The notes under the pieces are model-generated. The model was not told where the DNA came from. It saw nothing but the letters and a program-made list of their open reading frames with translations, and did not search any database. The position numbers and the translations under genes are program-made. A stretch of 29,232 nucleotides of DNA, from NCBI GenBank assembly GCA_964353715.1, contig CAYGWI010000001.1, positions 1 through 29,232 on the forward strand, given 5' to 3'. This document shows positions 14,739 to 15,917 of the stretch, piece by piece (the stretch's first letter is position 1; each line of letters begins with the position of its first letter). Origin of the DNA: an uncultured Dehalococcoidales bacterium (lineage in GTDB: Bacteria; Chloroflexota; Dehalococcoidia; GIF9; AB-539-J10).

Positions 14739-15917
14739 GTGGACTACCAAGGTATCGTGTTAACCGGAACGAGCGGTGCTGGTAAGACCAGTGTGGCCCG
14801 AAAGCTTGCCGAAATGGGCGGGGGATTTACACTAGTCCAGGCCTTGACCACACGAAAAAAACGCCAAGGCGACGCTACGGGTGAATACGTCTATGTGAGC
14901 CACGAGGAATTTGCGAAATCAGACAAACAAGGAGACCTGCTTGTCAAATCGAAATACAGAGGCGACAATTATGGGATTGCCACTAAAACCTTACAGGAAT
15001 TGATTAATGGCGGCCGAGTCCCTGTATTAGTAGTTACTCCAGAGTCTGTGCCTCAGTTCGTAGAAACGTGGCTAAATAAGACAAACGAGAGGCCACCTTT
15101 CCTCACAATTTTCTTGGACGCACCTGATAATATACTCGATGATAGATTGAAGGACAGAGGGGAACAAAAGGCGAATACTATAACAGAACAAAGACTACAT
15201 GATAGGGAATATGAGAAGTTGTGTATTTACACTGTCATTAATACAGACTTAGATAAGACCACCGCACTCATAAGCAGTCTCTGGGAACTCAGAAACAACG
15301 AAGGGATAGTTCCCAGGAGGCTAATCGAGCTTATGATAGAGTGTGGGGTGTTGCTTGACAATGCTCAACTCGAGAATATCAGCGGGGCTTCATATGATCT
15401 AACACTTGCCGATGACCACTATTACGGTGGTAAACAAGTAGTCTTAACCGAGCAAGATCCCTTTATTAAAATAGAACCCTTCGAGTTTGCATTTGTGAGA
15501 AGCAAGGAGATATGCAATTTCCCTAGAGATGTGGTCGGTCGATTTGATATCGCTGTCAGTTTGTTTTTCCAAGGATTAATCATGTCCAACGGACCACAGG
15601 TCGACCCTGGCTTCCGAGGGGGGCTATGGTGTCTTCTGTTTAACACCTCCAACGACACCGTTCAACTAAAACGAGGGCAACACTATGCGACCATGGAGTT
15701 CAGTAAGTTAGTACATCCGACTCACCCATACGAAGGTCGATACCAGGACAAAGAGAAGATAGAACATTACTTGCCAAGGGGCGCTTCACGAAGCCCCATC
15801 AGTGAGCTCAAAAAGGACATAAAGGATCTCAAGTCAGAGAAATGGTGGATAAAGATTTTGCCACTTGTTATATCGATCATAGCTGTAATAGTAACCATAA
15901 TATTTGCTGTTAAGTAG
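14739..15917 (+). CDS. Fusion of a guanylate-kinase-like NMP kinase, a dCTP deaminase/dUTPase-fold domain and a C-terminal transmembrane helix
   Basis: N-terminal GTSGAGKT, TTRKKRQGD and NYG. C-terminal ASYDLTL and QVDPGFRG..LFN. Hydrophobic tail ILPLVISIIAVIVTIIFAV. Confidence 0.85.
   Translation: MDYQGIVLTGTSGAGKTSVARKLAEMGGGFTLVQALTTRKKRQGDATGEYVYVSHEEFAKSDKQGDLLVKSKYRGDNYGIATKTLQELINGGRVPVLVVTPESVPQFVETWLNKTNERPPFLTIFLDAPDNILDDRLKDRGEQKANTITEQRLHDREYEKLCIYTVINTDLDKTTALISSLWELRNNEGIVPRRLIELMIECGVLLDNAQLENISGASYDLTLADDHYYGGKQVVLTEQDPFIKIEPFEFAFVRSKEICNFPRDVVGRFDIAVSLFFQGLIMSNGPQVDPGFRGGLWCLLFNTSNDTVQLKRGQHYATMEFSKLVHPTHPYEGRYQDKEKIEHYLPRGASRSPISELKKDIKDLKSEKWWIKILPLVISIIAVIVTIIFAVK

What the first reader, a model, noticed from the sequence alone, without database searches (positions are those of the whole stretch)
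14739..15917. Kinase/deaminase-fold/TM fusion with guanine-specificity and deaminase catalytic residues replaced
Manual alignment to remembered reference sequences. In the kinase domain the P-loop and phosphate-binding residues (yeast GK R38, R41, Y50, Y78) are kept, but guanine-reading S34, E69 and D100 appear as A, V and T. In the Dcd-fold domain, E. coli Dcd RSSLAR aligns to AVSLFF and catalytic E138 aligns to L, while DPG is kept. A short coiled-coil (ELKKDIKDLK) and a tail TM helix follow. Inference: a non-GMP kinase joined to a probably non-catalytic trimeric nucleotide-binding domain with a membrane anchor, which is a sensor-effector-like architecture.
Basis: partly seen in the sequence, partly recalled or inferred. 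Interest (0 to 1): 0.75.

Follow-up and report, generated by a model that had tools for sequence, protein, structure and literature searches.

The report
Membrane-anchored kinase/Dcd-like trimer, mobile cassette
This gene encodes a membrane-tethered protein that joins a nucleotide kinase to a remodelled dCTP-deaminase/dUTPase-like domain, and it is one subunit of an undescribed, horizontally mobile gene cassette found in both bacteria and archaea that is probably an anti-phage or nucleotide-handling system.

Summary
ORF 14739-15917 (392 aa) is a real, conserved fusion of three parts: a guanylate-kinase-fold P-loop domain, a Dcd/dUTPase-fold domain, and a coiled-coil plus C-terminal TM helix.

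- **Kinase domain:** it keeps the P-loop and NMP-phosphate contacts but lacks the guanine-reading residues.
- **Dcd-like domain:** it lacks the deaminase Glu/Ser/Arg. It also lacks the motif-2 Arg-Ser and motif-4 Arg..Gln of its nearest solved relatives, archaeal dUTPases. It is nevertheless the most conserved part of the protein. Its invariant residues line the inter-subunit pocket of a confidently modelled trimer, so "non-catalytic" is unproven.
- **TM helix:** it is present in essentially every relative.

The gene is the last in a cassette: FAD oxidoreductase, SAMHD1-like HD hydrolase, SPPY methyltransferase, then this fusion. About 45 of 63 loci across many bacterial and archaeal phyla keep this order. 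The cassette was not found in 60 relatives, is flanked here by 25-nt direct repeats, and often lies near integrases or defence genes. It matches no PADLOC model.

It resembles the Tal et al. kinase-dCTP-deaminase only by analogy. The scan noted this cassette before on other DNA (e1-2828749). Its function is still unknown.

The parts
14739..15917 (+). Whole gene: kinase / Dcd-like / coiled-coil-TM fusion (392 aa, GTG start, stop included)
   Evidence: There are 291 homologues at E<=1e-3, the best at 1e-230. The AF2 model has pLDDT 92 and pTM 0.88.
14751..15287 (+). Guanylate-kinase-fold NMP kinase domain (res 5-183). The P-loop G10-T17 lies at 14766-14789. NMP-phosphate residues T37, T38, R39, R42, Y50 and Y78 are kept. 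Guanine readers are replaced (A35, V69, T100).
   Evidence: Pfam PF00625 at 5e-14. TIGR03263 scores 78.9, below its cut-off of 160.45. Foldseek to GMPK structures gives TMt about 0.78. Alignments; residue frequencies.
15294..15794 (+). Dcd/dUTPase-fold domain (res 186-352). AVSLFF is at 15552-15569, DPG at 15603-15611 and CLLFN at 15630-15644. The C-terminal arm PYEGRYQDK is included.
   Evidence: Pfam PF22769 at 1e-9. Best solved match is 9ln0, dUTPase P45 (TMt 0.88, rmsd 1.8 A, 30% id). The trimer model scores 0.92 against 0.16 for the best control, and its interface contains residues 268-273, 276-277, 279-287, 289-290, 297-299 and 317-331.
15795..15914 (+). C-terminal continuous helix (res 353-392): an amphipathic ELKKDIKDLKSEKWW segment, then the tail-anchor TM helix (res 373-391, nt 15855-15911)
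   Evidence: Hydropathy 3.1 over 19 residues, conserved in all close homologues. A TM helix is present in 41 of 43 distant-clade members. AF2 gives a helix over 353-391.
10800..12167 (+). Cassette gene 1: FAD-dependent oxidoreductase (455 aa), the most persistent partner of the fusion
   Evidence: The AF2 model has pLDDT 92. Its best fold match is the uncharacterised flavoprotein VP0956 (3nlc, TMq 0.72), followed by GMC-type sugar/alcohol oxidases.
12148..13491 (+). Cassette gene 2: SAMHD1/EF1143-like HD phosphohydrolase (447 aa)
   Evidence: Pfam HD. PDB hits are 2q14, 2o6i and SAMHD1. It is conserved in cassette order.
13427..14737 (+). Cassette gene 3: N6_N4-type methyltransferase (436 aa). 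Motif I FAGVG is at about res 95 and motif IV SPPY at res 300.
   Evidence: SPPY is conserved in 48 loci.
10117..10803 (+). HNH endonuclease-like gene. It lies inside the same repeat-bounded insert and is translationally coupled to gene 1, but is not conserved with the cassette elsewhere.
   Evidence: Pfam HNH at 2e-6. No HNH homologue was found in any related locus.
9963..9987 (.). Left copy of a 25-nt direct repeat that brackets the HNH gene plus the cassette
   Evidence: 24/25 identical to the copy at 16034-16058, spacing 6071 bp
16034..16058 (.). Right copy of the 25-nt direct repeat

Best explanation
The gene encodes the membrane-anchored subunit of an undescribed, horizontally mobile nucleotide-enzyme cassette. 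The cassette is FAD oxidoreductase, SAMHD1-like HD hydrolase, SPPY methyltransferase, then the kinase/Dcd-like/TM fusion.

Shown or strongly supported:
- The protein is a homotrimer built by its Dcd/dUTPase-fold domain.
- A C-terminal helix holds it on the cytoplasmic face of the membrane. The helix is a coiled coil that continues into a tail-anchor.
- The N-terminal domain has everything an NMP kinase needs (P-loop, NMP-phosphate clamps) but not the guanine readers.
- The Dcd-like domain cannot be a dCTP deaminase, and it lacks the Arg/Ser/Gln that clamp and hydrolyse the triphosphate in dUTPases.

Inferred:
- The invariant, more hydrophobic pocket between subunits binds, and possibly converts, a pyrimidine deoxynucleotide that is not an ordinary dCTP or dUTP. 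It could be a monophosphate or a base-modified form.
- The kinase acts on a non-guanine (d)NMP in the same pathway as the HD hydrolase and the methyltransferase.
- The Dcd-like/TM core works with the flavoenzyme at the membrane.
- The cassette as a whole is most likely a conflict system (anti-phage or anti-plasmid) that senses or alters the deoxynucleotide pool, not housekeeping metabolism.
For: - **Fold and residues:**
- **Trimer:** the conserved motif residues sit at the modelled interface (0.92 against best control 0.16; calibration 21 of 30 solved pairs and 0 of 23 single chains).
- **TM helix:** universal.
- **Not housekeeping:** the genome has its own Gmk (C14) and a Dcd/dUT-type gene with RSSLLR (C109).
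- **Cassette order:** FADox-HD-MT-fusion is kept in about 45 of 63 GTDB loci from Chloroflexota, Bacillota, Bacteroidota, Acidobacteriota, Pseudomonadota, Halobacteria, ANME-1, Bathyarchaeia, Heimdallarchaeota and others.
- **Split version:** in Deinococcus oregonensis the Dcd-like/TM protein and the GK-like kinase are separate adjacent genes.
- **Kinase tracks HD/MTase:** the P-loop is intact in 42 of 47 loci with HD/MTase and decayed in all HD/MTase-less variants, which keep the FADox and the Dcd-like/TM part.
- **Mobility:** not found in 36 congeners or in 24 other genomes of the order. A 25-nt direct repeat brackets the insert. Flanks elsewhere hold integrases, resolvases and relaxases.
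- **Defence neighbourhood:** flanks also hold type I R-M, PD-Lambda-1, PDC-S01/S02, DRT, a TOTE primase and Cas1. In the window a type III R-M lies next door.
- **Kinase relatives:** the kinase's only PADLOC hit is VakA.
Against: - No experiment, and no ligand or activity is known for any member.
- No PADLOC model matches the fusion's Dcd-like part, the HD protein or the flavoenzyme. The defence assignment therefore rests on context only.
- The defence/MGE enrichment in the flanks is modest, roughly 15-20 of 124 flanking ORFs, and the loci are not independent.
- Several loci sit among ordinary housekeeping genes.
- The cassette has no obvious nuclease, helicase or signal synthase, so its logic as an immune system is unclear.
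- A DNA methyltransferase in the operon would normally imply a DNA-directed restriction activity, and none is evident.
Confidence: 0.5

Rival explanations
1. Sensor-effector (abortive infection). The Dcd-like trimer is a catalytically inert receptor for a nucleotide that appears or disappears on infection. That nucleotide may be made or removed by the kinase, HD hydrolase, methyltransferase and flavoenzyme. Ligand binding rearranges the coiled coil and the three TM helices, and the membrane is depolarised or permeabilised.
For: - The invariant core of the whole superfamily is Dcd-like domain plus TM helix. It survives when the kinase decays (L046, L049).
- The same core exists alone, with two TM helices, on a Priestia megaterium plasmid beside a DUF4062 protein.
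- The triphosphate-hydrolysis residues of motifs 2 and 4 are lost.
- The trimer would bundle three TM helices.
- The architecture parallels known nucleotide-receptor-TM effectors (Cap15, PycTM, Cam1; established knowledge).
Against: - No cyclase or other signal synthase is present in the cassette.
- The motif-3 Asp, motif-1 Asp and C-terminal arm are invariant, which a pure receptor would not obviously need.
- There is only a single tail-anchor helix per chain.
- The constant partnership with an FAD oxidoreductase suggests chemistry rather than signalling.
- Membrane damage has not been tested.
Confidence: 0.2
2. Modified-nucleotide pathway or pool sanitiser linked to the methyltransferase, built on the logic of the T4 hydroxymethyl-dC and phage Z-genome pathways. 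The HD enzyme removes a canonical or unwanted dNTP. The Dcd-like domain binds or hydrolyses a cytosine-type nucleotide whose N4 substituent sits in the hydrophobic pocket left by the E138/R115/S111 replacements. The kinase re-phosphorylates the corresponding dNMP. The flavoenzyme oxidises or demethylates. The cassette thereby makes, recycles or destroys N4-methyl-deoxycytidine-type nucleotides.
For: - Every domain is a nucleotide-metabolic type.
- The residues replaced in the Dcd-like pocket are exactly those around C4 of cytosine, and they become hydrophobic (L, V, F/C).
- The methyltransferase carries SPPY in all 48 loci checked. This motif is typical of N4-cytosine enzymes (established knowledge, from memory).
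- LOG-type nucleotide N-glycosidase genes follow the cassette in some loci, and the flavoenzyme is fused to DUF7768 in others.
- Kinase integrity tracks the presence of HD and MTase.
Against: - No full-length homologue occurs in 50,697 phage records, where such pathways are normally found.
- The methyltransferase aligns over its full length with type II DNA methyltransferases, which suggests DNA rather than free nucleotide as substrate.
- The universal membrane anchor has no role in this model.
- The phosphate clamps needed for dNTP hydrolysis are missing.
Confidence: 0.2
3. Ordinary housekeeping fusion of guanylate kinase with dCTP deaminase or dUTPase.
For: Both Pfam domains are above threshold, and some sources name homologues 'guanylate kinase/deoxycytidine triphosphate deaminase'.
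Against: - Guanine readers and deaminase/dUTPase catalytic residues are replaced across the family.
- Scores are below all NCBIfam equivalog cut-offs.
- The genome has separate Gmk and Dcd/dUT-type genes.
- The gene was not found in 60 relatives.
- The protein is membrane-anchored, and the gene lies in a repeat-flanked insert.
Confidence: 0.03

Closest known systems
Archaeal Dcd-type dUTPases (Pyrococcus 'P45' 9ln0/9ln3; Thermococcus pacificus 8y1w)
   Same: Same fold and the nearest solved relatives of residues 186-352 (TMt 0.87-0.88, rmsd 1.8-2.3 A, 26-30% identity). Both lack the deaminase Glu. Both keep motif-1 Asp, the DPG Asp with its following aromatic residue, and the PYxGxYQ C-terminal arm. 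Both have trimeric assembly (modelled here).
   Different: The dUTPases keep R-S-S (motif 2), the Arg of SLAR and R..Q (motif 4). The window protein has A-V-S, F and H..T at those places. It is also fused to a kinase and a TM helix, whereas the dUTPases are about 155-aa soluble enzymes.
dCTP deaminase Dcd / bifunctional Dcd-Dut (E. coli 1xs1, M. tuberculosis 4a6a, B. halodurans 4xjc)
   Same: Same Pfam family PF22769 and fold. The DPG motif and general architecture are shared.
   Different: Catalytic E138, S111 and R115 are L299, V273 and F277. TIGR02274 scores 56.7, below its cut-off of 92.8.
Guanylate kinase (Gmk; yeast 1gky, mouse 1lvg, human GMPK 9lo3)
   Same: Same fold (TMt about 0.78), P-loop, and the phosphate-binding Thr/Arg/Tyr of the NMP site.
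   Different: Guanine-specifying Ser, Glu and Asp are Ala, Val/Ile/Trp and Thr. TIGR03263 scores 78.9, below its cut-off of 160.45. A separate Gmk exists in the genome.
Defensive kinase-dCTP deaminase of Tal et al. (bioRxiv 10.1101/2021.04.26.441389; Nat Microbiol 2022)
   Same: An N-terminal nucleotide-kinase-like domain is fused to a C-terminal domain of the kind annotated 'dCTP deaminase'. Both are found in defence-island-like contexts. In that protein both domains are needed for dCTP depletion.
   Different: That protein is 576 aa and soluble, and its deaminase is a zinc-dependent cytidine-deaminase-fold domain with Cys ligands. Here the domain is Dcd/dUTPase-fold without a deaminase Glu. 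It gives no PADLOC dCTP-deaminase hit, has a TM anchor and sits in a four-gene cassette. The resemblance is analogy, not homology.
Nucleotide-receptor-TM effectors of CBASS/Pycsar/type III CRISPR (Cap15, PycTM, Cam1)
   Same: A cytoplasmic nucleotide-binding domain is joined to TM helices in a mobile, defence-like locus.
   Different: The ligand-binding fold is unrelated. No cyclase or oligoadenylate synthase partner is present. An active-looking kinase and three further enzymes are present instead. Membrane activity is untested.
   Same: The gene set is apparently the same (FAD enzyme, HD, methyltransferase, kinase/dCTP-deaminase-like, membrane partners) and the conclusion is the same: conserved across phyla, beside defence genes, matching no described system.
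   Different: It is an AI note on other DNA and its sequences were not compared here. The window's copy lacks the small membrane protein gene and carries an HNH gene instead.

Membership tests
Guanylate kinase (Gmk, EC 2.7.4.8) | GK fold / Pfam PF00625 above gathering score | tested here: met
   52.8 bits against 25.2. Foldseek TMt about 0.78 to GMPK structures.
Guanylate kinase (Gmk, EC 2.7.4.8) | P-loop GxxGxGK[ST] and NMP-phosphate clamps (yeast R38, R41, Y50, Y78) | tested here: met
   G10, G13, G15, K16 and T17 are present, as are R39, R42, Y50 and Y78. All are at least 90% conserved.
Guanylate kinase (Gmk, EC 2.7.4.8) | Guanine-reading Ser34, Glu69, Asp100 | tested here: not met
   A35, V69 and T100 by HMMER alignment to 1lvg, 3lnc and 8pts. 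Across the family these are A/P, I/W/V and mostly T.
Guanylate kinase (Gmk, EC 2.7.4.8) | NCBIfam equivalog TIGR03263 cut-off | tested here: not met
   78.9 bits against a cut-off of 160.45
dCTP deaminase (Dcd) | Dcd/dUTPase beta-barrel fold, PF22769 | tested here: met
   38.9 bits against 27; Foldseek matches
dCTP deaminase (Dcd) | Catalytic Glu138 with Ser111 and Arg115 | tested here: not met
   L299, V273 and F277. Glu never occurs at position 299 in 103 sequences.
dCTP deaminase (Dcd) | NCBIfam equivalog TIGR02274 cut-off | tested here: not met
   56.7 bits against 92.8
Dcd-type trimeric dUTPase | Motif 3 Asp plus sugar-stacking aromatic residue; motif 1 Asp; C-terminal arm | tested here: met
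   D289 is in 103 of 103 sequences, position 292 is F or Y, D220 is in 102 of 103, and PYxGxYQxK is conserved.
Dcd-type trimeric dUTPase | Motif 2 Arg-Ser and motif 4 Arg..Gln (triphosphate clamp and catalytic water) | tested here: not met
   A/S/T-V at positions 272-273 and H315..T318, against RSS and R..Q in 9ln0 and 8y1w. NF002598 scores 19.2 against a cut-off of 130.
Dcd-type trimeric dUTPase | Homotrimer with active sites at subunit interfaces | tested here: met
   Model only: ipSAE 0.92 against best control 0.16, with the conserved motifs in the interface. The pass may reflect the likeness to solved trimers.
Dcd-type trimeric dUTPase | dUTP hydrolysis activity | not testable with these tools
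   Needs an enzyme assay
Defensive kinase-dCTP deaminase (Tal et al.) | Zinc-dependent cytidine-deaminase-fold C-terminal domain | tested here: not met
   Definition taken. The domain here is Dcd/dUTPase fold. PADLOC gives no hit to the C-terminal half even at E<=10.
Defensive kinase-dCTP deaminase (Tal et al.) | Phage-triggered dCTP depletion | not testable with these tools
   Needs infection and metabolomics experiments
Nucleotide-receptor-TM defence effectors | Cognate signal synthase (cyclase/oligoadenylate synthase) in the operon | tested here: not met
   Cassette genes are FADox, HD, MTase, kinase/Dcd-like, and sometimes a small TM protein or LOG. No cyclase was found.
Nucleotide-receptor-TM defence effectors | Ligand-induced membrane disruption | not testable with these tools
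   Needs membrane-potential or permeability assays

The most novel reading that the evidence does not exclude
The Dcd-like/TM trimer is the receptor, or the enzyme, for a base-modified deoxycytidine nucleotide such as an N4-methyl-dC nucleotide. In this reading the SPPY methyltransferase, the HD hydrolase and the non-guanine kinase form that ligand's synthesis and turnover branch. The cassette would then be a new class of immune system that couples an epigenetic-type nucleotide to a membrane-located flavoenzyme/effector module. Together these would define a new functional class within the dUTPase superfamily.
Probability: 0.12. Interest if true: 0.85.

Novelty: new variant of a known kind. Interest (0 to 1): 0.62.

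Why it matters
The dUTPase/Dcd superfamily is known for soluble housekeeping enzymes. This family is large and crosses domains of life. In it the fold has lost the known catalytic and triphosphate-binding residues, yet it stays under very strong constraint, is always tethered to the membrane, and always travels with a flavoenzyme.

The cassette around it (flavoenzyme, SAMHD1-like hydrolase, methyltransferase, kinase) matches no described defence or modification system. It nonetheless behaves like a mobile accessory island. If it is an immune system, it would add a new way of using the deoxynucleotide pool against invaders. If it is a modification or salvage pathway, it would reveal new nucleotide chemistry.

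Either way it can be tested directly, because cultured carriers exist:
- Pseudomonas cedrina LMG 21467
- Litchfieldella anticariensis FP35
- Bradyrhizobium retamae Ro19
- Deinococcus oregonensis
- Dyadobacter sp. CY261
- Anaerotignum lactatifermentans An390
- Natrarchaeobius versutus

Tried and rejected
- **PADLOC:** scans of the fusion, its C-terminal half, the HD protein, the flavoenzyme and eight other Dcd-like/TM variants gave nothing beyond a weak VakA hit to the kinase.
- **VakA literature:** the search returned only unrelated papers. Reading VakA as 'viperin-associated kinase' is my guess and was not verified.
- **Other literature:** four further searches, and look-ups in two comparative-genomics papers on BREX and Dnd systems, found no description of this architecture or cassette. 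Searches for the dUTPase structure papers and for Dcd residue roles found nothing usable. Residue roles in Dcd and dUTPase therefore rest on established knowledge recalled from memory.
- **Phage and plasmid collections:** no full-length homologue was found. Hits were ordinary guanylate kinases, plus a stand-alone Dcd-like/2TM protein on a Priestia plasmid.
- **Corrected error:** I first classed the distant clade as lacking a TM helix and took that as evidence against a membrane role. Scanning the whole tail showed a TM helix in 41 of 43 members, so that argument was withdrawn.
- **HNH gene:** the idea that it belongs to the system was rejected, because no homologue occurs in any related locus.
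- **Small upstream ORF:** in other loci this family is a membrane protein unrelated to the HNH gene.
- **Flavoenzyme fold search:** it pointed only to an uncharacterised structural-genomics protein and to generic GMC oxidases, so it did not fix the chemistry.
- **Model coordinates:** they are not available to scripts, so pocket geometry could not be measured directly.
- **Atlas feature search:** it returned only generic 'dCTP deaminase family' clusters.
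Full report
**The gene**

The + strand ORF 14739-15917 starts with GTG two bases after the stop of the upstream methyltransferase gene and encodes 392 residues. It is a real gene. The large protein collection holds 291 relatives at E<=1e-3, with the closest at 87-90% identity. All are 385-420 residues long and carry the same Pfam pair. An exhaustive search of 1.8 billion representatives gave 109 clusters at E<=1e-30.

Pfam places Guanylate_kin on residues 5-178 (52.8 bits, cut-off 25.2) and DCD on residues 204-323 (38.9 bits, cut-off 27). 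An AlphaFold2 model built on 103 sequences is confident throughout (pLDDT 92, pTM 0.88). It ends in one long helix, residues 353-391.

**Checking the residue claims**

HMMER alignments to solved guanylate kinases put A35, V69 and T100 opposite the guanine-reading Ser, Glu and Asp. The P-loop and the phosphate-binding T37, T38, R39, R42, Y50 and Y78 are kept.

Alignments to E. coli Dcd, B. halodurans Dcd-Dut and two archaeal enzymes give the following:
- A272-V-S-L-F-F277 lies opposite R-S-S-L-A-R.
- L299 lies opposite the catalytic Glu (ITLE-LFN against LWCL-LFN).
- DPG is retained.

A frequency table over 103 family members shows these are family states, not private mutations:
- Position 299 is Leu in 77 and Met in 24, never Glu.
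- Position 273 is Val in 97.
- Position 277 is Cys, Phe or Leu.
- Position 69 is Ile, Trp or Val.

1. The nearest solved relatives of the C-terminal enzyme domain are not deaminases. They are archaeal Dcd-type dUTPases: 9ln0 'dUTPase P45' (TMt 0.88, rmsd 1.8 A, 30% identity) and 8y1w, Thermococcus pacificus dUTPase. These enzymes naturally carry Met where Dcd has Glu138. Loss of the Glu therefore does not by itself mean loss of catalysis.
2. The family has nevertheless also lost what those dUTPases keep. The Arg-Ser of motif 2 and the Arg of SLAR are gone, and motif-4 R..Q is H315..T318. By established knowledge of dUTPases, recalled from memory, these residues clamp the triphosphate and hold the catalytic water.
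3. Other elements are kept: motif-1 Asp (D220), motif-3 Asp (D289, in 103 of 103 sequences), the sugar-stacking aromatic residue (F/Y292), and the C-terminal arm PYxGxYQxK.
4. This domain is the best-conserved part of the protein. The stretch RFDxxVSLFxQGxxLSNGPQVDPGFxGxLFCLLFNTS is nearly invariant from Chloroflexota to Halobacteria.
5. A three-copy model of residues 186-352 scored ipSAE 0.92 against 0.16 for the best control. In the tool's calibration this mark was reached by 21 of 30 solved pairs and by 0 of 23 single chains. The tool warns that the job differs from its calibration and that likeness to solved trimers can carry such a pass. The interface residues include 268-273, 276-277, 279-287, 289-290, 297-299 and 317-331, which are the conserved motifs.

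The remodelled residues therefore line the inter-subunit pocket that is the active site in this superfamily. I read this as a conserved, altered ligand site. It is certainly not a dCTP deaminase and is unlikely to be a canonical dUTPase. It is not shown to be inert.

**The membrane anchor**

All 120 close homologues end in the amphipathic (E/D)LKxDIxxLKxEKWW segment followed by a hydrophobic helix.

I first scored the 30%-identity sister clade as TM-less, because I looked only at the last 60 residues. Scanning the whole tail showed a TM helix at about residues 360-390 in 41 of 43 members, followed by an extra low-complexity tail. Stand-alone Dcd-like proteins with one or two C-terminal TM helices also exist, for example on a Priestia megaterium plasmid.

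The invariant core of the whole superfamily is therefore a Dcd-like trimer plus a TM helix.

**Genomic context**

The gene is the last of four tightly packed or overlapping genes:
- an FAD oxidoreductase (10800-12167);
- an HD phosphohydrolase related to SAMHD1, EF1143 and 2q14 (12148-13491);
- an N6_N4 methyltransferase with motif IV SPPY (13427-14737).

The order FADox-HD-MTase-fusion recurs in three metagenomic or genomic relatives that share 50-60% identity, including Candidatus Methanoperedens. It also recurs in about 45 of 63 loci recovered from one-genome-per-species GTDB representatives. These span Chloroflexota, Bacillota, Bacteroidota, Acidobacteriota, Actinomycetota, Spirochaetes, Pseudomonadota, Planctomycetota, Deinococcus, Halobacteria, ANME-1, Bathyarchaeia and Heimdallarchaeota. 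SPPY is conserved in all 48 methyltransferases checked.

Variants are informative:
- In Deinococcus oregonensis the Dcd-like/TM protein and a 171-aa GK-like kinase are separate neighbouring genes.
- About 16 or more loci add a small membrane protein, with an N-terminal TM helix and what looks from its sequence pattern like a small beta-rich domain (no Pfam match), directly upstream of the flavoenzyme. This gene is absent from the window.
- Some loci add a LOG-type nucleotide N-glycosidase.
- A reduced form consists of the small membrane protein, the fusion, and a flavoenzyme fused to DUF7768. It lacks HD and methyltransferase, and in all such loci the kinase P-loop and TTR motif have decayed while the Dcd-like/TM part stays intact.
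- Across all loci, 42 of 47 with HD/MTase have an intact P-loop, against 0 of 4-6 without. The loci are related, so this is suggestive only.

Kinase activity thus goes with the HD-methyltransferase pair. The Dcd-like/TM core goes with the flavoenzyme.

**Mobility and defence-like setting**

- The fusion was not found (E<=1e-30) in 36 other species of the same genus or in 24 further genomes of the order.
- The genome has its own guanylate kinase and a Dcd/dUT-type gene with an intact RSSLLR motif elsewhere.
- In the window a 25-nt direct repeat (24 of 25 identical) at 9963-9987 and 16034-16058 brackets the HNH gene plus the cassette. A type III restriction-modification pair lies immediately upstream.
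- In Pseudomonas cedrina a tyrosine integrase sits beside the cassette. In Methanoperedens it lies among Prim-Pol, RadC and SNF2 genes.
- Among 124 ORFs flanking 40 cassettes there are integrases, resolvases, relaxases, type I R-M methylases, PD-Lambda-1, PDC-S01/S02, a DRT reverse transcriptase, a TOTE primase and Cas1.
- Several other loci sit among housekeeping genes.
- No full-length homologue occurs in 50,697 phage or 72,556 plasmid records.

**Comparison with what is known**

The obvious comparison is the defensive kinase-dCTP deaminase of Tal et al. That comparison is an analogy. That protein's deaminase is a zinc-dependent cytidine-deaminase-fold domain. PADLOC gives no hit to the C-terminal half of the window protein even at E<=10. 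The kinase's only PADLOC hit is VakA at 7e-6.

The flavoenzyme model (pLDDT 92) matches best an uncharacterised structural-genomics protein (3nlc, TMq 0.72). GMC-type sugar or alcohol oxidases follow. This does not fix its chemistry.

No paper found in eight searches describes the architecture or the cassette. I did not compare its sequences.

**Mechanism**

I commit to the following at about even odds. The protein is a tail-anchored homotrimer. Its kinase domain phosphorylates a non-guanine (d)NMP in a branch shared with the HD hydrolase and the methyltransferase. Its remodelled Dcd-like pocket binds, and perhaps converts, a pyrimidine deoxynucleotide that is not ordinary dCTP or dUTP. It works with the flavoenzyme at the membrane. 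The cassette as a whole is a conflict system acting on or reading the deoxynucleotide pool.

- **Shown:** fold, residue states, conservation, TM helix, cassette conservation, accessory distribution.
- **Modelled:** the trimer and the position of the motifs at the interface.
- **Inferred:** ligand class, active kinase, defence role.

Two rivals each hold about 0.2:
- **Sensor-effector reading.** The Dcd-like trimer is an inert receptor that drives its TM helices to damage the membrane.
- **Modified-nucleotide pathway.** The hydrophobic replacement of exactly the C4-facing residues, together with the SPPY (N4-cytosine-type) methyltransferase, hints at N4-methyl-deoxycytidine nucleotides.

An ordinary housekeeping Gmk-Dcd fusion is essentially excluded.

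**Verdict**

The finding is a new, strongly conserved variant of known folds inside an undescribed mobile cassette. Its function is unknown but readily testable in cultured carriers.

Noticed in passing
window 9963-9987 and 16034-16058: A 25-nt direct repeat (24/25 identical, 6071 bp apart) brackets the HNH gene plus the four-gene cassette, like att sites of an insertion. No integrase lies inside the insert.
   Followed up: partly
window 16169-16400: A block of degenerate direct repeats rich in AACCATC-type units (three 49-nt copies, 78-100% alike) lies just downstream of the insert, in the intergenic region before the minus-strand membrane-protein gene.
   Followed up: no
L016:4298-4786, L036:4388-4837, L020:4358-4795 and about 13 more loci: A small gene of about 150 aa, encoding an N-terminal TM helix and what looks from its sequence pattern like a small beta-rich domain (motif GGYxTxTDxxGxF; no Pfam match), sits directly upstream of the flavoenzyme gene in many cassettes. 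It is absent from the window, where an HNH gene occupies that place.
   Followed up: partly
L046:8559-11839, L049:6392-9181, also L043, L050, L052, L054: A reduced three-gene variant consists of the small membrane protein, the fusion with a decayed kinase P-loop, and a flavoenzyme fused to DUF7768. It has no HD or methyltransferase genes. In L046 it lies next to a 1079-aa DEAD/ResIII helicase.
   Followed up: partly
L068:5045-10427 (Deinococcus oregonensis): A split version of the cassette: the Dcd-like/TM protein (382 aa, non-kinase N-terminus) is followed by a separate 171-aa GK-like kinase gene.
   Followed up: partly
L065:10378-10941, L009:2494-3033, L001:10705-11382: LOG/Lysine_decarbox (SLOG cluster 4) genes, which are nucleotide N-glycosidase-type, lie just downstream of the fusion in several loci. 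In Pseudomonas cedrina a tyrosine integrase lies at L065:3332-4564.
   Followed up: no
L078:5941-6729 (Priestia megaterium plasmid pB1.1): A stand-alone 262-aa Dcd-like protein with two C-terminal TM helices and altered motifs (TKGKLF; LGIVFSN). It is annotated hypothetical and lies near DUF4062 and AAA ATPase genes.
   Followed up: no
G000 contig C109:2463-2831 (L075:1492-1887): The genome's other Dcd-family gene is cut by the contig end. It has RSSLLR but WDAGYSG instead of DPG, and no Glu in the visible part, so it is probably a dUTPase-type enzyme.
   Followed up: no
window 3632-9852: A type III restriction-modification pair (res 3632-6610, mod 7216-9852; PADLOC MTase_III at 7e-277) lies immediately upstream of the insert, so the region is a small defence island.
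   Followed up: partly
L012:5082-6416 (ANME-1 archaeon): The flavoenzyme reading frame of this cassette copy contains one in-frame stop codon. This could be a sequencing error, a pseudogene or recoding.
   Followed up: no
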